In this document: one piece after another, positions 14,445 to 21,379 of the stretch | Layout of the letters: each line of letters begins with the position of its first letter | How positions within the stretch are numbered: the stretch's first letter is position 1 | From: Candidatus Binatia bacterium | GTDB taxonomy: Bacteria; Desulfobacterota; Binatia; Bin18 | Direction of reading: 5' to 3' | Length of the DNA stretch: 64,000 bases | Assembly (NCBI GenBank): GCA_963422435.1 | Contig: OY729511.1 | Location: 244,208 to 308,207 of the forward strand | Program-made: the position numbers and the translations under genes | The notes under the pieces: model-generated | Databases searched by the model: none | Told to the model about the DNA's origin: nothing | What the model saw: only the letters and a program-made list of their open reading frames with translations

Positions 14445-15719
14445 TTACTCATTTGTGTCCGGAGCATCGAGCGGGTAGGCAATCGCTTCAACCTGAGGAG
14501 TCTGCTGTCGAGCCTGCTCGGTCCGGAAGGTTTGTTCGAGTTCGCGGTCCAGGACGCCTTCGGCGACATAGCCGGTAAACGCACGCTGCACCGTACCGTC
14601 AGGAGCAAACAGGAAACTGCTGGGCAAGGCGAATACATGATAGCGCAGACCGATCTCGTCCGACGGATCGCGGCCGATGGCGTACGGGATATTGTATTTC
14701 TGGACAAAGTCCCGCACGCCGTCTTCTTCACTCTGCAAGGCAACCCCGATAACGGCAAATCCGTGGCGTTTATACTTGTGATACATGCGGACCAGAGCCG
14801 GCGTTTCTATAACACAGGGGCCGCACCAGGTCGCCCAGAAATTGACCAGGACTACTTTTCCCTCATAGTCGGACAAACTCACCCGGTCGCCATCAATGGT
14901 CGTCAGGGTAAAATTATAGTCGCCGTATCTATTCCGCACCGATAGCGGGTCAGACGCAACCGACGTGGAAACGCCTGCTTCTTGTGCCTCGCTGACCAGG
15001 AGCGCTTCCGGGTTCAAAAAAGTCAGCCGCGACGAGACCCAGGCCAGCTTATCGGTAAAGATGAGCAGGCCGACCAGGACGAGCAGCATGCCAGCCGCCA
15101 CCTCCATTTGCCGCAGATAGCCCTTCAGCCCTTGGAAGAGCGACAGAAAGCCGTTCAGGCAGGCGGCAGAGAGTATAAACGGGATGCCGAGGCCAAGCGA
15201 ATACACCGCCAGCAGGAGAACCCCCTGACTGAGCGTCTCGGTCGTGGCGGCTAGGGCCAGGATACCCGCCAGAATCGGGCCAACGCACGGCGTCCAGCCA
15301 AAGGCGAAAAACAGCCCGGCCACAAAAGCCCGGATCATACCGGGCTCCGCGGGCTCTTTGGAAAAGCGCCGCTCCCGGAGTAAGGCCGGGATGGGCAATA
15401 CCCCGGCCAGGTGCAGGCCCAGGACCATAATGCCCAGTCCGGCGATGCCTTTGAGTATCCCCAGGTTTGATCTGAGCAGCCCACTCACCACAGAGGCCGA
15501 GGCGCCAAGGGCAATGAACACCAGAGAGAAACCACACACAAAGGGCAGGCTCTTGAGCAGCGCACTGGTCATCAGGTGGGCCGAGCGCTGGCGGGCGGTG
15601 AGTTGTTCAAAACTCATACCGGTAATAAAGGTCAGATAGCCGGGCACAATAGGCAGGACGCACGGCGAGGCAAAAGACAGAAAACCTGCCAGCAGGGCAA
15701 TACCAAGTCCGATATCCAT
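14445..15719 (-). CDS. CcdA-TlpA fusion (DipZ-like disulfide reduction protein)
   Basis: SFASPCVLP and GWTPCVGP in the membrane domain; NFWATWCGPC thioredoxin domain. Confidence 0.92.
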   Translation of the reverse strand: MDIGLGIALLAGFLSFASPCVLPIVPGYLTFITGMSFEQLTARQRSAHLMTSALLKSLPFVCGFSLVFIALGASASVVSGLLRSNLGILKGIAGLGIMVLGLHLAGVLPIPALLRERRFSKEPAEPGMIRAFVAGLFFAFGWTPCVGPILAGILALAATTETLSQGVLLLAVYSLGLGIPFILSAACLNGFLSLFQGLKGYLRQMEVAAGMLLVLVGLLIFTDKLAWVSSRLTFLNPEALLVSEAQEAGVSTSVASDPLSVRNRYGDYNFTLTTIDGDRVSLSDYEGKVVLVNFWATWCGPCVIETPALVRMYHKYKRHGFAVIGVALQSEEDGVRDFVQKYNIPYAIGRDPSDEIGLRYHVFALPSSFLFAPDGTVQRAFTGYVAEGVLDRELEQTFRTEQARQQTPQVEAIAYPLDAPDTNE

Positions 15720-15920: not shown

Positions 15921-16469
15921 CTATAGGCGATTTCCAGACAAGCGCAAAGACGGGTCGGCCGCCGGCTCTTTCTTGTGACGGGACCGTTTCTCCCGGAAGA
16001 AGCGTTGGAGCAACGTTCGACACTCCTCTTCACACACCCCACTCGTGACGTCCAGGCGATGATTCAGGCGGGTATCCAGGGCAATATTATACAGCGATCC
16101 CGCAGCGCCAGCCTTGGGGTCAAAACAGCCAAAGACGAGGCGTTTGACCCGTGCGTACACTAGCGCCCCCATGCACATGAGACAGGGCTCAACCGTTGTG
16201 TACAGCGTCGCGTCTACCAGCCGGTAATTCTTGAACCGCTGCGTGGCGTGTCGTACGGCCTGGATTTCCGCGTGAGCCGTCGGGTCGCTGGTTGCAACCG
16301 GCATATTATGGCCCCGGGCGATGATGTGCTCCTCCAGGACGACGACTGCACCAATGGGCACTTCGTCTGCGGCTTCGGCCAGGGCGGCTTCGGCCAGGGC
16401 GAATTGCATCCAGGCTCTATCCTGTTCCACCTGTCGGTCCGTTCCGGGAGAGTCGTTTTCAACTGACAT
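15921..16469 (-). CDS. tadA: tRNA adenosine(34) deaminase
   Basis: EVPIGAV, DPTAHAE, EPCLMC, DPKAGA. Confidence 0.95.
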   Translation of the reverse strand: MSVENDSPGTDRQVEQDRAWMQFALAEAALAEAADEVPIGAVVVLEEHIIARGHNMPVATSDPTAHAEIQAVRHATQRFKNYRLVDATLYTTVEPCLMCMGALVYARVKRLVFGCFDPKAGAAGSLYNIALDTRLNHRLDVTSGVCEEECRTLLQRFFREKRSRHKKEPAADPSLRLSGNRL

Positions 16470-18054
16470 TTTCGACGGCTCGCAACGGCACCCATTCCTG
16501 GCTCTGCTTCTTCTGGTCCTGCACAATGCGGCGCAACTCGTCCAGCGTTCCGACCCCTCCCCGGCTGCCGACAATGCTCTCGACCGCGAGGTCGTAACTC
16601 TCGATGGCGTTGAGCAGGTCCCGAGACCAATCGGCAACCTGTCGGACGGCTCCCGGCGTAAACAGGTCAGCCGCAAAAAGCAGGCGTTCCTCAGGCAGAT
16701 AGACGATCAACATGCCATCCACATGCCCGGTCTCAATCGGATAGACAATAACCACCCGATTTTCGTCAACGAAAAACTTGCGTTCATTCTTGACCGCTTC
16801 AATCACCGCAACTCTCGGGCGACGCTGGAGGCTGTCCGGGACTTGGGTATGCAGAGCGCGAAACACGTCTTGGAAGAGTGAGACGTTCAGCGCGCTGGTC
16901 ACCACAATCGTATCGGCTGCCACATAGGTCCGCAGCCCGCCCGCGTGCTCACTATGAAAATGCGTATTCACGACAAACCGGACCGGCTTGGTTGGAAATC
17001 GCCGGCGTAAGGTATCCAGCACCGCGCGTGAGTGCGCATCATCCTGCGGGGCCTCAACCACAATCAAGTACTCGCCCATCTCAACCGCCAGGCTCTGATA
17101 TCGCCCCCCGACAATATGCATCACCCCTGGCGCAAGGTCGCGCAACGCGAGCGACGAAGCGGGCGTATCGACCGGGCGGCCCTGAGCAATCTGCCGGAGC
17201 ACCCAGTGAGAGCTCTGTTCTCCGCGTGCTCCGTCCCACTCTTGCGGATGCTCAATTTCTTCCGGAATGATAAAGTCCACGTGCGACAGATCAATATCAT
17301 TCTGAATGACGTCAACATGTTCAACCATGATGGTCTGGCCGTCGACCCGATAGATGCGTTCAAATGGGAGTTTCAGCTTGCCGACTTGACGCCAGTCGGA
17401 AAAAAACACTTCGTTCTGCACATCGCCGTACAACGGGTCATCTTCAACAAAGACGACCTTGGTCAGCAGTCGCGTTTCCGAGTCTATAGCTAACAGAACA
17501 AGTTGGGTATTGTCGTTAAATGAGACGACCACCTGGCGGCGCCCGTGAATCGTTTGATCCATCAGACGCAGAAAGGAGTTCGAACGACTCAGCGCATGAA
17601 TCAGGACGGAGACGGGCGAACGGCGCAGCTCTTTGTGACGGGCGGCAATACGAGCCGCCGACATCGCCCGGCGGCAGGGGATCTCAAAGCCGTCGCAGCC
17701 GAGTATGGCGCCGTCGAGTCCGTTCATGATTTCGGTGTAGGCCCAGGTTTCCTGGAAGGGATAGACCAGCGTACGCTCCCACTCATAGCGCACGCGGCCC
17801 TTCTCTAGGTCTCGGAACAGCACATAACGAAATTCTGACACCTTGCGGGGCTCGGCTCCGGGACGAGGGCTCAGGTCGGGCTCAAAATTCTCGCCATGAC
17901 TGATAATCCGCTGGCTTTTGAGGTCCAGCAGAACTGGCCGTTCGCCAATGGCGAGTACGGCCGAATTCACAAAAACCTTGGCAGGCTGGGCAGCGGCAGG
18001 AGCAAGGCCAAAGAGCAGCGGCAGGCAGACTCCCCAGACCAAACGTACCGCCAT
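16459..18054 (-). CDS. Secreted MBL-fold metallo-hydrolase with N-terminal extension
   Basis: Signal peptide; VNTHFHSEHAGG (HxHxDH variant with Glu), GHVDG, ADLF. Confidence 0.85.
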   Translation of the reverse strand: MAVRLVWGVCLPLLFGLAPAAAQPAKVFVNSAVLAIGERPVLLDLKSQRIISHGENFEPDLSPRPGAEPRKVSEFRYVLFRDLEKGRVRYEWERTLVYPFQETWAYTEIMNGLDGAILGCDGFEIPCRRAMSAARIAARHKELRRSPVSVLIHALSRSNSFLRLMDQTIHGRRQVVVSFNDNTQLVLLAIDSETRLLTKVVFVEDDPLYGDVQNEVFFSDWRQVGKLKLPFERIYRVDGQTIMVEHVDVIQNDIDLSHVDFIIPEEIEHPQEWDGARGEQSSHWVLRQIAQGRPVDTPASSLALRDLAPGVMHIVGGRYQSLAVEMGEYLIVVEAPQDDAHSRAVLDTLRRRFPTKPVRFVVNTHFHSEHAGGLRTYVAADTIVVTSALNVSLFQDVFRALHTQVPDSLQRRPRVAVIEAVKNERKFFVDENRVVIVYPIETGHVDGMLIVYLPEERLLFAADLFTPGAVRQVADWSRDLLNAIESYDLAVESIVGSRGGVGTLDELRRIVQDQKKQSQEWVPLRAVENVS

Positions 18055-18164
18055 GCTGATGCTCCTCCGTTTTTTCATTCGGACTCTGTGTTCCGGGGGT
18101 CTCTCGGCTAGGGGCGGCTGCTCCACCGCCCCCAGGGGCGTCGTCCAAGAGAGAGAGCAGCGGG

Positions 18165-18788
18165 CTAACCGGTCAGGCCAATTCGGACCTCTTCGTAACT
18201 CGGCCGGCTTTTCAACCGCTCGGCCCAGGCCGCGACGTGTGGAAATGGACTGAGGTCGAGCCCCAGTTTGTCGCCCAAGCCAAGAAACGGGGTGAAGGTA
18301 AGGTCAGCCAGGCTATAGTCGCCCAGGAGATAGTCTTGATCCTGGAGTCGTTCTTCGAGTTGCGGAAAGAGCGCGTTGAGTTGGTCGGTATTCCGGGCCA
18401 TACGTTCCGGGTCTTGCTCCGCTTTGGGTTTCCGGCTGGTATACAGCAGACGAATGAGCGGTGGTACGAACTGGCTGTTACACAGTTCGATGAGGAGCCG
18501 CATTTCAGCCTTGGCAGCCGGCGCCGACGGAGAGAGCGCCGGCGTTGGATAGGTGTCTTCCAAATACTCGTTACAGATGGCCGACTCATAGACCCAGGCC
18601 CCTTCTTCGACCAGCACCGGAACCTTCCCGTACGGGTTAATCGCCAGAAACCACGGTTCTTTTTGTTCTTTGCTCGGCAGGTCTATGAGAATGCGATCAA
18701 AGTCGAGCGCTTTTTCTTTGAGAACAATCCTTGTTCTCATGGCGAACGGTCAGGGCAGATAGTCGAACAGCTTTCTCTTGATAGTCAT
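18165..18788 (-). CDS. Glutathione S-transferase family protein, probable selenoprotein (UGA at codon 13)
   Basis: GAGGAG then ATG 18788: MTIKRKLFDYLP-UGA-PFAMRTRIVL, continuing in frame into INPYGKVPVL...ESAICNEYL...YSLAD. The ORF track starts only at 18740. Confidence 0.88.
18719..18739 (-). promoter_or_regulatory. Putative bacterial SECIS element
   Basis: UGAGAACAA-GGA-UUGUUCUCA perfect 9-bp stem with G-led loop, loop starting 19 nt after the UGA. Confidence 0.78.
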
Positions 18789-18879
18789 ACGTGGCTCCTC
18801 TCCGCGTTGTCTCCATAGCTCTTCAAGGGCTGACCTTAGAAAGACCGGGCGTGTACGTCAAGTCTCTTCATCTAGCCTG

Positions 18880-19932
18880 CTAGGATTCAATCATCTCGGC
18901 AAAGGCCTGCATGAACTGACGCATCTGTTCGAGCGTGCCAATGCTCAGCCGAAAACTGCCGTCAATCACGGGCTTGCCCCGCATATTGCGGACCAGGATG
19001 CCGTGCTCGCGCAGTGCGCTTTCAACCACCTCGCACTCTTGTGGCGGCCAGACGAGCAGATAGTTGCCGCCTTGTCCAAAATATCGCACGCCCAAACGCT
19101 GAAGCTGTTGCGTCACCCACTCCCTGGCGGCTTGGACCCGTTGGACGTACTGTTCAACATAGGCGCGGTCGGCGAGAGCGGCTTTTCCGGCGGTCACCGC
19201 AAAGGCGTTAATATCATAGGGGCCGGTGACGCGGCTGAGCCGACTCACCAGCTCGGGCTGACCAATAGCGAAGCCTAAGCGCAACGCAGCCAAGCCCGCA
19301 GATTTGGACAGCGACTGAAGCACCACAACATTGTCCAACTCAAGCGCGGCCGGCAGGACCGACTTCTTCGTGAAGTCCGCGTATAACTCATCAACCACAA
19401 CCAGAGTATCGGGCACAGCCTGTGCCAACTCCAGCAAGGTCTGCGGTTCGAGCAAGGTGCCGGTTGGATTGTTGGGATTGCAGATAAAGCATAACCGAGG
19501 CTTATGCGTGAGCCGTTCACGCATGGACTCAAGCGGAAAACTCAAATCGGCAGGATACAGGACCTCATCCTGTTGCATGCTGTGCTGGAGCGCGCACGGC
19601 TTGTAATAACCGAAAGTCGGCGCGGTTGTCAGAAAGGTGCTCCCCTTTTCGCCGTACACATCGAAGATCGTGTGAATGGCCGCATCCACCCCGTTAAAGG
19701 CTTCAACGTAGTGAGCCGGGACGTTGACGGACGCCGCATACGCCTCATTCAGACCAGCGTATTCCGGATAGGTCGCATAGGCACCGGGCGGGAGACTCCG
19801 AATAGCCTCGACCACTCTCGGGCTCGGCCCAATTGTATTTTCGTTAAAGTCGAGGCGCAGCATGGGTCGTCGCCCTTCAAGCGGGGCAACATAGGGTTCA
19901 AGCTGCTCGACTTCAGACTTGGCCTTAATCAT
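18880..19932 (-). CDS. hisC: Histidinol-phosphate aminotransferase
   Basis: LDFNEN, CNPNNPTG, VDELY, SLSKSAGLAALRLG. Confidence 0.9.
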   Translation of the reverse strand: MIKAKSEVEQLEPYVAPLEGRRPMLRLDFNENTIGPSPRVVEAIRSLPPGAYATYPEYAGLNEAYAASVNVPAHYVEAFNGVDAAIHTIFDVYGEKGSTFLTTAPTFGYYKPCALQHSMQQDEVLYPADLSFPLESMRERLTHKPRLCFICNPNNPTGTLLEPQTLLELAQAVPDTLVVVDELYADFTKKSVLPAALELDNVVVLQSLSKSAGLAALRLGFAIGQPELVSRLSRVTGPYDINAFAVTAGKAALADRAYVEQYVQRVQAAREWVTQQLQRLGVRYFGQGGNYLLVWPPQECEVVESALREHGILVRNMRGKPVIDGSFRLSIGTLEQMRQFMQAFAEMIES

Positions 19933-19962: not shown

Positions 19963-20886
19963 TTACACAAAATGGGGCAGAATGTCTTGTCCATAGTGTT
20001 CGAGCTGAGACGGAATGTCAGTCGGCGGACAAATAGGCCGGAGCACAAATTTATCACAACCAACTTCGACAAAGTGCGCGATCTGCTCCACGCACTCTTG
20101 GGCTGAGCCGATCAGCGAGCGCCGCATGATGACCTGCGGGTCGACCCGCAGACCGTGGAAGAACGGCGCAACCGTTTTCAGGGCTGCGGCCCGATCTTCG
20201 CACACATGAGTGAAGAGCAGCACCCCGGCCTCACGCGGATCAATCGTCCGCCCGTATTCCTCCCCATACACCTTGAGTTTTTCCATATCGCGCTGAAACT
20301 CGACAGGTGAAGTCAAGGCGGGGAACCAGCCGTCCCCGAGACGGACGACGCGTTTGAGAATTGCGTCACTCTTGCCGCCAATCCAAATATCGAGCGCACC
20401 CTGCTTCGGTTTGGGCTCAAGCGTCACATCCTCAAAATGGTAGAACTCTCCCTGATGCGTGACGTGCGACTCGGTCCACAGCTTGCGCAGAATCTCGATC
20501 CCTTCTTCGAGACGACGGCCACGGGCTTGAGGCGGCACCCCACACGCAACCAGATCGCGCGGATCGTTGCCGCTCCCGACAGCCATGATCATCCGACCGT
20601 TTGAAAGATAGTCGAGGGTGGCATAGGTCTTGGCCACCTGGACCGGATGTCGCGCCGGCAGGGTAAAAACACTCGGTCCCATTTTCAGGCGCGAGGTGCG
20701 CCCGGCAATCATGGCGAACAAACAGGAGATGTCCAGCGTGGGGTTGAGGGTCACAATATGATCGGACAACCATAACGAATCCAGCCCGGCGGCCTCTGCC
20801 GCTGCTGCGCTGTTGCACAGGAGTTCGGGGTCGGGTAAGCCATACTTCCACTGTCCAAAGCCGATACCGATTTTTACGCCACTCAT
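19963..20886 (-). CDS. LLM-class (possibly F420-dependent) oxidoreductase
   Basis: [38 protein letters not shown]. Confidence 0.9.
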
Positions 20887-20986
20887 GCTGCTCCTCCGCA
20901 CTCTTTCCGACGTGTGCTTCTCGCTGTATATAGGTGAAGCTATCAGACCGGAGCAAAGAGTACAGACCAACGAGGGAGCGTACACT

Positions 20987-21379
20987 ATGGGCAGTAAAGT
21001 CGAGAAGACCGAAGAGGAATGGCGCGCGCAGCTCACCCCCGAGCAGTTTGCCGTCTGTCGGATGAAGGCGACCGAGCGACCGTTCTCGGGCGCATACAAC
21101 ACGTGCAAAGATGAGGGTATCTATCAGTGCGTGTGTTGCGGCACCGAATTGTTTTACTCATCCACCAAATACGAATCGGACAGTGGTTGGCCCAGCTTCT
21201 GGGAGCCAGCGCAGCCGGACAGCGTACGCCTGGAGACAGACCAGAGCCACGGCATGATCCGGACCGAAGTGCTGTGTAATACCTGTGATGCCCACCTCGG
21301 CCATGTCTTTGACGATGGCCCACCACCGACCGGACAGCGCTACTGCATGAACTCCCTTTCGCTTCAGCTCAAGACGTAA
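20987..21379 (+). CDS. msrB: Peptide-methionine (R)-S-oxide reductase, Zn-binding
   Basis: [36 protein letters not shown]. Confidence 0.96.

What the first reader, a model, noticed from the sequence alone, without database searches (positions are those of the whole stretch)
18165..18788. Probable selenocysteine glutathione S-transferase missed by the ORF caller
Seen: strong RBS, ATG, 12 codons, TGA, then PF and an intact GST body; a perfect 9-bp hairpin with GGA loop follows the UGA. Known: GSTs of this type carry a catalytic Cys or Ser in a (C/S)PF motif here, bacterial SECIS elements lie just 3' of the UGA, and Sec-GSTs have been predicted from marine metagenomes but are little studied. The annotated 191-aa ORF would lack its active site.
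Basis: partly seen in the sequence, partly recalled or inferred. Interest (0 to 1): 0.8.

Follow-up and report, generated by a model that had tools for sequence, protein, structure and literature searches.

The report
Selenocysteine glutathione transferase gene in Binatia
The apparent stop codon near the start of this glutathione-transferase gene almost certainly encodes selenocysteine at the catalytic site, so this is a real, routinely mis-called gene, but of a selenoprotein kind already predicted from ocean metagenomes.

Summary

**What is there.** On the minus strand (window 18788-18165) lies a 207-codon GST gene. It has a Shine-Dalgarno site, an ATG and a TGA at codon 13. A perfect 9-bp hairpin with a GGA loop starts 10 nt after the TGA.

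**Evidence that the TGA encodes selenocysteine:**
- The TGA is kept in all 26 orthologues I read from related genomes and in 25 of 27 metagenome relatives.
- The eight codons before it vary only synonymously.
- Full-length homologues carry Cys at that position (CPF/CPY).
- The hairpin core is paired in 32 of 32 distinct sequences, with two compensatory positions. It meets all four published bacterial SECIS constraints.
- The only two non-TGA relatives (TGC, GGA) both have a damaged hairpin.
- The complete 3.9-Mb genome (titles of near-identical records: Candidatus Binatia) has selA, selB, selD and tRNA-Sec.
- It has at least six other selenoprotein genes with hairpins of the same geometry.

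**Novelty.** Sec-containing GSTs were predicted in 2005 and 2008 and are listed in a 2026 review. This scan has already noted Sec-GSTs on other DNA, including Binatia. So this is a new member of a known kind. It is mis-called as a 191-aa protein in nearly all public protein sets. Its substrate is unknown.

The parts
18165..18788 (-). Complete selenoprotein GST gene: 207 codons plus a TAG stop, with UGA = Sec at codon 13.
   Evidence: Translation with TGA=U. Pfam GST_N_2/GST_N_3/GST_N plus GST_C. AlphaFold2 model with mean pLDDT 86.8 and a canonical GST fold. Orthologues are colinear in 26 genomes.
18795..18803 (-). Shine-Dalgarno sequence GGAGAGGAG, 6 nt upstream of the ATG at 18788-18786.
   Evidence: Read directly. 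An (A/G)GGAG(G) core is kept upstream of the start in the orthologues printed.
18750..18752 (-). In-frame UGA (codon 13), read as selenocysteine. It aligns with the catalytic Cys of CPF/CPY homologues.
   Evidence: TGA in 26 of 26 orthologues, in 28 of 28 named genome loci, which overlap that set, and in 25 of 27 metagenome loci. Cys in 10 of 10 full-length homologues. It aligns with the Cys of TCPFSQR in PDB 6v91 and 4qq7.
18719..18739 (-). SECIS hairpin. The 5' arm is 18739-18731, the GGA loop 18730-18728 (+23 to +25 from the U of UGA) and the 3' arm 18727-18719. The conserved core is the inner 7 bp.
   Evidence: Folding. 99.4% of cells paired against 38-48% in slid controls. Core paired in 32 of 32 distinct sequences, with AU/GC exchanges at two positions and an invariant GGA loop. 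Hairpin MFE -8.7 kcal/mol.
18738..18740 (-). Internal ATG (Met17) that gene callers use as the start of the truncated 191-aa ORF. It lies inside the 5' arm of the hairpin.
   Evidence: ORF list. 95 of the 96 best database clusters are 181-193 aa. The G025 orthologue has CAG (Gln) here, so this start is not conserved.

Best explanation
The gene encodes a 207-residue cytosolic-type glutathione transferase whose catalytic residue is selenocysteine (motif LP-U-PFA, the counterpart of the CPFA motif of Cys-type, omega-like GSTs).

How translation most likely works. It starts at the ATG at 18788. At UGA codon 13, SelB carrying Sec-tRNA(Sec) is recruited by the hairpin 10 nt downstream. That hairpin has a 7-9 bp stem and a GGA triloop at +23 to +25. 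Sec is inserted instead of termination. These steps are inferred from the established bacterial Sec pathway. What is shown here is the conserved UGA, the hairpin, the coding signal on both sides of the UGA and the presence of the machinery.

How the enzyme most likely works. Sec13 sits at the N-terminal end of helix alpha1, next to the conserved glutathione-binding elements (cis-Pro in VPVL, and the ES motif). It would act as a selenolate nucleophile that forms a selenenyl-sulfide with glutathione. That makes the enzyme a GSH-dependent reductase, thiol-transferase or lyase, or a peroxidase, rather than a classical conjugating GST. This part is inferred, and the substrate is unknown.
For: 1. 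**Machinery.** selA, selB and selD score over their curated cut-offs, and a tRNA-SeC with anticodon TCA lies beside selA.
2. **Conserved TGA.** It is at the same codon in G000, in 24 of 24 same-genus genomes and in one genome of another family. All 16 of the 151 class genomes with a match at E <= 1e-55 also show one TGA.
3. **Coding signal upstream.** Codons 5-12 keep the same amino acid in 26 of 26 sequences while using 2-5 synonymous codons each.
4. **Cys pairing.** Cys aligns with U in 10 of 10 full-length homologues. One metagenome relative has TGC.
5. **Hairpin conservation.** The core is paired in 32 of 32 distinct sequences. Two positions exchange AU for GC, and the GGA loop is invariant.
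6. **Published SECIS model.** All four constraints quoted in PMC13188914 (Fig. 2 legend, passage read) are met: loop 3 nt, stem 9 bp, G in the first two loop positions, 19 nt from the UGA to the loop, and MFE -8.7 kcal/mol.
7. **Natural control.** The two relatives without TGA both have a damaged stem, while 25 of 25 with TGA keep at least 7 contiguous pairs.
8. **More distant Sec-GSTs.** Three TGA-GSTs at 32-38% identity have a hairpin at the same distance with different stem sequences.
9. **Other selenoprotein genes.** The same scan returns six further genes of known selenoprotein families in this genome, with loops starting at +22 to +24: four UGSC, one DsbA-like (UPYC) and one CMD/AhpD-like (CNLU).
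10. **Genetic code.** TGA is an ordinary stop here: 927 of 2,370 long ORFs end in it.
11. **Position in the fold.** U13 lies between beta1 (residues 5-9) and alpha1 (residues 14-25) in a model with pLDDT 86.8.
Against: - No direct evidence of selenium incorporation or of the full-length protein exists. Everything is comparative.
- The folding energy of the region is not significant against shuffles (z = -0.52).
- The nearest paralogues in the same genome have Ser, not Cys, at the position. The chemistry of the subfamily is therefore not uniform.
- selA was not found in G003, which has the TGA orthologue. Its selB and tRNA-Sec are present, and the assembly has 170 contigs.
- G027 carries a distant TGA-GST but no selA, selB or tRNA-Sec was found.
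- The orthologues are close kin, so counts across them overstate independence.
- The enzymatic role is inference only. No NCBIfam equivalog reaches its cut-off, and the neighbouring genes give no pathway clue.
Confidence: 0.9

Rival explanations
1. Termination plus re-initiation. The UGA is a true stop, the 12 upstream codons form a short leader ORF, and the functional product is the 191-aa protein started at Met17. The hairpin would act as a translational regulator.
For: An ATG lies 4 codons after the UGA, and gene callers choose it everywhere. Sec insertion is generally inefficient (established knowledge), so some ribosomes probably do stop at the UGA.
Against: - The upstream peptide KRKLFDYLP is homologous to strand beta1 and the active-site loop of full-length Cys homologues (IKLYDYPQCPF...). 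It is not an independent leader.
- The G025 orthologue has Gln instead of Met17.
- No Shine-Dalgarno sequence precedes Met17.
- The 191-aa product would lack beta1 and the catalytic residue.
- The Met17 ATG is buried in the hairpin's 5' arm.
Confidence: 0.04
2. The UGA is decoded as something other than Sec. Two routes are possible: Cys, through Cys-tRNA(Sec) made when selenium is scarce, or near-cognate read-through (Trp or Cys).
For: Cys is tolerated at the site: P0013 and L111 carry TGC. That the Sec pathway can yield Cys under selenium limitation is recalled knowledge, not tested here.
Against: - The complete dedicated Sec machinery is present.
- A SelB-type hairpin is kept only where TGA is kept.
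- TGA is a normal stop in this genome.
- If Cys were the intended residue, TGC or TGT would be a cheaper solution. Yet TGA persists in 26 of 26 genomes.
Confidence: 0.04
3. It is a pseudogene: a nonsense mutation in a decaying GST gene.
For: A single in-frame stop near the 5' end is what a fresh nonsense mutation looks like in one genome. One metagenome relative (L118) has Gly at the site together with a second nearby substitution.
Against: - The same TGA is present over 67-100% protein identity in at least 30 genomes.
- Variation upstream of it is synonymous only.
- No other stops or frameshifts occur in any of the 26 orthologues.
- Cys-pairing and a covarying SECIS are present.
Confidence: 0.01

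Closest known systems
Sec-containing glutathione S-transferase (GST-like) selenoprotein family. It was predicted in the Sargasso Sea (PMC1088965, Table 1: 4 sequences, COG0625) and in the GOS data set (PMC2398784, table passage: 12 Sec, 1,036 Cys homologues). The 2026 review PMC13188914 lists it (table passage: PF13409, one representative accession).
   Same: GST fold with PF13409 as the best Pfam hit. An in-frame TGA is paired with Cys in homologues. A bacterial SECIS lies directly downstream. There is no experimental characterisation, and annotation pipelines truncate the gene.
   Different: The published members come from marine surface metagenomes and are few. This clade sits in Candidatus Binatia genomes (record titles). 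It is in Sec form in every genome where I found it, and about a hundred public protein clusters represent it in truncated form. I could not fetch the published representatives, so whether this clade and the marine sequences are the same subfamily is untested. In this class I saw at least three TGA-GST subgroups only 32-38% identical to each other. The review lists a single form.
Omega-class GSTs (human GSTO1, PDB 1eem) and other Cys-type GSTs.
   Same: A (C/U)-P-F-A motif at the start of helix alpha1. The thioredoxin-like N-domain keeps the cis-Pro (VPVL) and ES glutathione-binding elements. Human GSTO1 matches at E = 7.8e-19. The expected chemistry is a mixed (seleno)disulfide with GSH, giving reductase or thiol-transferase activity rather than conjugation (established for omega GSTs, inferred here).
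   Different: This protein is 207 aa against about 241 aa. It has no N-terminal extension: only 4 residues precede beta1. It has Sec instead of Cys, and identity is low.
Burkholderia 'stringent starvation protein A'-annotated GSTs (PDB 6v91; 4qq7, which has bound glutathione).
   Same: They are the best solved-structure matches by sequence (E = 6e-26, about 31-32% identity). Their TCPFSQRCRLVL motif aligns with LPUPFAMRTRIVL.
   Different: The NCBIfam SspA equivalog model scores 62.6 bits against a cut-off of 314. Nothing suggests an RNA-polymerase-associated role.
Artificial seleno-GSTs (active-site Ser or Cys converted to Sec; review PMC9944854, passages read).
   Same: Sec is placed at the GST active site beside bound glutathione.
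   Different: Those are engineered theta-, zeta- and insect-class enzymes. They gain glutathione-peroxidase activity of the order of natural GPx. This one is natural and untested.

Membership tests
Sec-containing GST-like selenoprotein family (Zhang, Fomenko & Gladyshev 2005) | GST N- and C-terminal domains (COG0625 / PF13409) | tested here: met
   PF13409 72.7 bits, PF13417 60.4, PF02798 58.4 and PF00043 47.1, all over their cut-offs. Foldseek TM 0.74-0.84 to many GST structures.
Sec-containing GST-like selenoprotein family (Zhang, Fomenko & Gladyshev 2005) | In-frame TGA conserved in at least two different sequences (criterion quoted in PMC1088965, methods passage) | tested here: met
   26 of 26 genome orthologues and 25 of 27 metagenome loci.
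Sec-containing GST-like selenoprotein family (Zhang, Fomenko & Gladyshev 2005) | At least two Cys-containing homologues aligned with the TGA | tested here: met
   10 of 10 full-length homologues have Cys: P0013, P0109 and P0113-P0121. L111 has TGC.
Sec-containing GST-like selenoprotein family (Zhang, Fomenko & Gladyshev 2005) | Bacterial SECIS just downstream: 3-9 nt loop, 4-16 bp stem, G in the first two loop positions, 16-37 nt from UGA to loop, MFE <= -7.5 kcal/mol (PMC13188914, Fig. 2 legend) | tested here: met
   Loop GGA (3 nt), 9-bp stem, 19 nt spacing and MFE -8.7 kcal/mol. Covariation shown.
Sec-containing GST-like selenoprotein family (Zhang, Fomenko & Gladyshev 2005) | Host genome has the Sec-decoding trait (selA, selB, selC, selD) | tested here: met
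   All three protein genes score over their cut-offs. tRNA-SeC with anticodon TCA.
Sec-containing GST-like selenoprotein family (Zhang, Fomenko & Gladyshev 2005) | Sequence kinship with the published representatives | not tested
Sec-containing GST-like selenoprotein family (Zhang, Fomenko & Gladyshev 2005) | Selenium actually incorporated at the UGA | not testable with these tools
   Needs 75Se labelling or mass spectrometry.
Omega-class GST | Catalytic Cys in a CPF(A) motif at the N-terminus of helix alpha1 | tested here: met
   UPFA, with U13 directly before helix 14-25. It aligns with the Cys of the CPF motif in the best PDB matches.
Omega-class GST | N-terminal extension before beta1 and a length of about 240 aa (recalled) | tested here: not met
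   207 aa, with beta1 starting at residue 5.
Stringent starvation protein SspA (NF007016) | Score over the curated equivalog cut-off | tested here: not met
   62.6 bits against 314.
Maleylacetoacetate isomerase / zeta GST (TIGR01262) | Score over the curated equivalog cut-off | tested here: not met
   79.3 bits against 171.05.

The most novel reading that the evidence does not exclude
This Binatia GST orthogroup may be an obligate selenoenzyme. Sec is kept in every genome where the orthologue was found, over more than 30% protein divergence. That suggests the reaction needs selenium chemistry that Cys cannot supply.

The boldest reading is that it is a natural glutathione peroxidase, or selenenyl-sulfide reductase, built on the GST scaffold. 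It would be the natural counterpart of the artificial seleno-GSTs, which reach GPx-like activity (PMC9944854). It would operate in an organism where no full-length canonical GPx match was found: the best PF00255 hit is 31.8 bits and covers model positions 2-59 of 108.

The GGA triloop and 7-bp SECIS, shared by three GST subgroups with unrelated stem sequences, would then mark either an old Sec-GST lineage or repeated Cys-to-Sec conversion.
Probability: 0.25. Interest if true: 0.6.

Novelty: new member of a known kind. Interest (0 to 1): 0.35.

Why it matters
No natural Sec-containing GST has been characterised biochemically. The family exists only as predictions: PMC13188914 says the functions of nearly all such predicted selenoproteins remain uncharacterised (passage read).

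This locus offers a clean, complete-genome example with its cognate selA, selB, selC and selD. It has a minimal and well-defined SECIS. It also has natural Cys and Gly variants for comparison.

It shows that a large soil- and sponge-associated clade is truncated to 191 aa in public protein sets. That truncation removes the active site and hides Binatia's selenoproteome of at least 7-8 genes. No paper in the searched library pairs Binatia with selenocysteine (0 papers). A search for 'Binatota' with 'selen*' gave 10 papers; I saw titles and abstract openings only, and none concerns selenoproteins.

For annotation, it is one more case for Sec-aware gene calling.

Tried and rejected
- **RNA evidence.** No RNA run holds more than 0.20 of the sampled words. 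Contigs of two metatranscriptome libraries of one study (X3, X4) cover 18150-18803 with 51 differing letters in 654, so they come from a relative at about 92% identity. They bridge the TGA site. But these are contigs from libraries that may contain DNA. Seven of the 47 differences were not listed, so I cannot say the TGA is kept there. X1 and X2 gave only short pieces, and their RNA label is a guess. This is no evidence for or against expression.
- **Gene neighbourhood.** The neighbours are an hisC-like aminotransferase upstream, a 555-aa metallo-beta-lactamase-fold protein downstream, an F420-dependent LLM oxidoreductase and a tadA-like deaminase. They give no pathway clue, and I did not test whether the neighbourhood is conserved.
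- **GST class by fold.** Many classes match equally well (phi, Ure2p, zeta, SspA-like, beta-etherase). The fold search therefore does not assign a class.
- **NCBIfam.** No equivalog reaches its cut-off.
- **Origin of Sec.** The tree has 43 rows. I left out the truncated 191-aa database clusters and used only 3 of the own-genome paralogues. The 27 Sec orthologues and the Cys form P0013 make one clade (support 100/99). The G027/G035 Sec pair joins it at 88/81 with a long-branch warning. The G025 second Sec-GST lies apart. The number of Cys-to-Sec events is unresolved.
- **Alternative genetic code.** Rejected, because TGA ends 927 of 2,370 long ORFs.
- **Literature.** The search for 'Binat' with 'selenoprotein' gave 17 papers. 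The 10 listed are unrelated medical papers, and the other 7 were not seen.

Full report
**1. Observation.**
The feature lies on the minus strand.
- A Shine-Dalgarno sequence GGAGAGGAG (18803-18795) sits 6 nt before the ATG at 18788.
- Twelve codons follow (MTIKRKLFDYLP), then TGA at 18752-18750, then PFAMRTRIVL.
- An uninterrupted GST body runs to TAG at 18167-18165.
- Read with TGA=U, the product is 207 residues. Its Pfam matches are GST_N_2 (72.7 bits), GST_N_3, GST_N and GST_C.
- Ten nucleotides after the UGA begins a perfect 9-bp hairpin, UGAGAACAA-GGA-UUGUUCUCA (18739-18719).
- Under table 11 the longest ORF is 191 aa and starts at Met17. That ATG lies inside the 5' arm of the hairpin.

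The bulk folding energy of the region is not unusual: z = -0.52, and 58 of 200 shuffles fold at least as well. Hairpins of this specific kind are rare, however. They occur at 34 of 20,960 comparable TGA sites in the genome for stems of 9 bp or more, and at 280 of 20,960 for 7 bp or more. None of the 10 non-Sec GST paralogues of the same genome has one at the matching position.

**2. Genome and Sec machinery.**
The window belongs to a single-contig genome of 3,921,111 bp with 98.6% completeness. Titles of near-identical public records name the organism as Candidatus Binatia MAGs.
- selA scores 592 bits.
- selB scores 385 bits.
- selD scores 306 bits.
- A tRNA-Sec scores 70.7 bits against Rfam. 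ARAGORN calls it tRNA-SeC with anticodon TCA, and it lies directly beside selA.
- TGA is an ordinary stop here: 927 of 2,370 stop-to-stop frames of at least 300 codons end in TGA. A reassigned genetic code is therefore excluded.

**3. Conservation of the TGA.**
- In a search of 41 genomes, G000, 24 of 24 same-genus genomes and one genome of another family (G025, 68% identity) each have one orthologue with exactly one in-frame TGA. The other 15 genomes have only hits of at most 46% identity as their best match, and those carry no stop.
- I read all 26 orthologues. The TGA is codon 13 in each, and no other stop or frameshift occurs.
- In an even sample of the class (151 genomes, 74 genera), 16 genomes have a match at E <= 1e-55. 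All 16 carry the TGA. They belong to two genera of one family.
- 28 of 28 named genome loci, which overlap the above, also have the TGA.
- Among the 27 metagenome loci I read (of 40 returned), 25 have TGA, one has TGC and one has GGA. The 13 not read are 11 distant loci at 25-30% identity and 2 that lack the N-terminus.

**4. Translation continues across the TGA.**
- Codons 5-12 (RKLFDYLP) encode the same residue in 26 of 26 sequences while using 2-5 synonymous codons each. This is the signature of purifying selection on a translated frame.
- The peptide is homologous to strand beta1 and the active-site loop of full-length homologues.
- In G025 codon 17 is CAG (Gln), so the start used by gene callers is not even available there.

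**5. Cys/Sec pairing.**
- All 10 full-length homologues I aligned have Cys at the U position, in CPF or CPY. They are P0013 at 68% identity and nine others at 38-47%.
- The best solved-structure matches align their CPF cysteine with it. These are the Burkholderia SspA-annotated GSTs 6v91 and 4qq7 (E = 6e-26). Human GSTO1 (1eem) also matches, at E = 7.8e-19.
- The nearest paralogues inside this genome mostly have Ser, and one has Cys.

**6. The hairpin as a SECIS.**
- On the 26-genome alignment, 99.4% of cells are paired against 38-48% when the 3' partner is slid. Two of the nine pairs show changes on both sides.
- Adding metagenome relatives gives 52 TGA-bearing sequences with 32 distinct 40-nt segments. 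The inner seven pairs are paired in 32 of 32. Position +18/+30 runs AU 14, GU 8, GC 10. Position +21/+27 runs AU 4, GC 28. The outer two pairs are looser (30 of 32 and 25 of 32). The GGA loop is invariant.
- These changes are synonymous third-position changes (AGA/AGG, ACA/ACG, ATT/ATC, GTT/GTC). The covariation is therefore not forced by the protein.
- Codon 20 (AGG, Arg) and codon 23 (CTC, Leu) never vary, although other Arg and Leu codons in the gene do.
- All four constraints of the published bacterial SECIS model are met (PMC13188914, Fig. 2 legend, passage read). The loop is 3 nt, the stem 9 bp, G occupies the first two loop positions, 19 nt separate the UGA from the loop, and the hairpin MFE is -8.7 kcal/mol.

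A natural control supports this. The TGC locus L111 has a GTT-to-GTC change with no compensation, leaving 4 contiguous pairs and -4.2 kcal/mol. The GGA locus L118 has lost the loop-closing pair. By contrast, 25 of 25 TGA loci keep at least 7 contiguous pairs, at -9.5 to -12.9 kcal/mol. These are only two cases among related sequences, so this is suggestive rather than statistical.

Three more distant TGA-GSTs (32-38% identity; G025, G027, G035) carry hairpins at the same distance with different stem sequences. GGA sits at +23 to +25 in each, although for the G025 paralogue the predicted fold puts a GAU loop at +24 to +26.

**7. Other selenoprotein genes in the same genome.**
I scanned for TGA sites with open, coding-like frames on both sides and a downstream hairpin of at least 7 bp. 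The scan returned 7 candidates. One is this GST.

The other six all fall in known selenoprotein families:
- four UGSC proteins (PF24696, 104-182 bits);
- a DsbA-like protein with UPYC;
- a CMD/AhpD-like protein with CNLU.

Their loops start at +22 to +24, as here.

**8. Structure and likely chemistry.**
The AlphaFold2 model was built from 24 aligned sequences with C in place of U. Its mean pLDDT is 86.8 and its pTM is 0.82. Residue 13 lies between beta1 (5-9) and helix alpha1 (14-25). This is the catalytic position of thioredoxin-fold Cys-GSTs (established knowledge).

P57 of VPVL and S69 of the ES motif are invariant in the alignment. That they bind glutathione is established knowledge for GSTs, not something tested here. 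Foldseek finds the generic cytosolic GST fold (TM 0.74-0.84) without singling out a class.

By analogy with omega-type GSTs, I infer a selenolate nucleophile that forms a Se-S adduct with glutathione. The enzyme would then be a reductase, thiol-transferase or lyase, or a peroxidase. Artificial seleno-GSTs gain GPx-level activity (PMC9944854, passages read).

**9. Points against or unresolved.**
- selA was not found in G003, which has the orthologue. selB (387.8 bits) and tRNA-Sec (49.8 bits) are there, and the assembly has 170 contigs.
- In G027, which carries a distant TGA-GST, none of selA, selB or tRNA-Sec was found. This remains unexplained.
- selA is present in 113 of 151 class genomes, so the Sec trait is widespread in the class.
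- There is no direct evidence of selenium insertion.

**10. Comparison with what is known, and novelty.**
- GST is one of the 15 new selenoprotein families of the Sargasso Sea study (PMC1088965, Table 1: 4 sequences).
- GOS found 12 Sec forms against 1,036 Cys homologues (PMC2398784, table passage).
- A 2026 review lists 'GST-like protein, PF13409' and says such proteins remain uncharacterised (PMC13188914, passages).
- This scan has already reported Sec-GSTs on other DNA: e1-1117580 in Binatia and e1-4376679.

The finding is therefore a new member of a known kind. Three things are added here:
- a complete-genome case with its own machinery;
- a sharply defined 7-bp plus GGA SECIS, with natural non-TGA controls;
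- the demonstration that 95 of the 96 best public protein clusters (P0002-P0097, 62-94% identity) are 181-193 aa and cover at most 92% of the query. Only P0013 (204 aa) reaches the N-terminus. I checked the actual start of the short forms for P0020 only; P0095 starts further in, and P0099, outside that set, also starts at Met17.

Supplementary files of the cited papers were closed. They may list sequences that would show whether this clade was already included.

**Verdict.** Observation confirmed and interpretation supported. My confidence that the UGA encodes Sec is about 0.9. The enzymatic role is inferred. Interest is moderate to low because the kind is catalogued.

Noticed in passing
Outside the window: L105 (G000:C1:113016-114044, +), L106 (2686625-2687326, +), L107 (3581338-3581943, -), L108 (2812004-2813044, -), L109 (862793-863356, -), L110 (69009-69551, -): Six further genes have an in-frame TGA followed by a 7-9 bp hairpin. 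Four are UGSC-family proteins (PF24696), one is a DsbA-like protein with UPYC, and one is a CMD/AhpD-like protein with CNLU. All belong to known selenoprotein families.
   Followed up: partly
L010:1393-3708 (-), = G000:C1 about 3415554-3417869: selD is the C-terminal half of a 772-aa ORF. The N-terminal half is a pyridine nucleotide-disulphide oxidoreductase domain (PF07992, 96 bits), so this is a fused SelD. From recall, such fusions have been described.
   Followed up: partly
L048 (G027:C85:29266-30411): A distant TGA-GST (LYSCHT*PYAHRTRIVL) with an 8-bp hairpin and a GGA loop lies in a genome where selA, selB and tRNA-Sec were not found. It could be a mis-binned contig, an assembly gap or a relic gene.
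   Followed up: partly
L118 and L111 (metagenome loci, codon 10 of the match): These are natural non-Sec variants of the orthologue. L118 has GGA (Gly) plus an Ile-to-Asn change that opens the hairpin. L111 has TGC (Cys) with an uncompensated stem mismatch.
   Followed up: partly
L047 (G025:C15:396734-397933): G025 carries a second TGA-GST of a different subgroup (MYHWPT*PYCQKVRIAL, 38% identity) as well as the orthologue. It has its own hairpin at the same distance.
   Followed up: partly
window 14742-14918 (-) (G000:C1:258949-259125): This is the only hit to the glutathione-peroxidase model PF00255 that passes its cut-off in the genome. It is partial: 31.8 bits, covering model positions 2-59 of 108, inside a 441-aa open frame. 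No full-length canonical GPx match was found with this query.
   Followed up: no
window 16459-18126 (-), 18880-19932 (-), 19963-21108 (-), 15921-16676 (-): The neighbours on the same strand are a 555-aa metallo-beta-lactamase-fold protein with a hydrophobic N-terminus, an hisC-like aminotransferase (262 bits, just under the 276.55 cut-off), a TIGR03619-family F420-dependent LLM oxidoreductase and a tadA-like deaminase. No link to the GST is evident.
   Followed up: no
window 18150-18803: Contigs from two metatranscriptome libraries labelled sponge metagenome (one study) hold a relative of the whole gene at about 92% identity. This hints that members of the genus live in sponges. It is not evidence of expression.
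   Followed up: no
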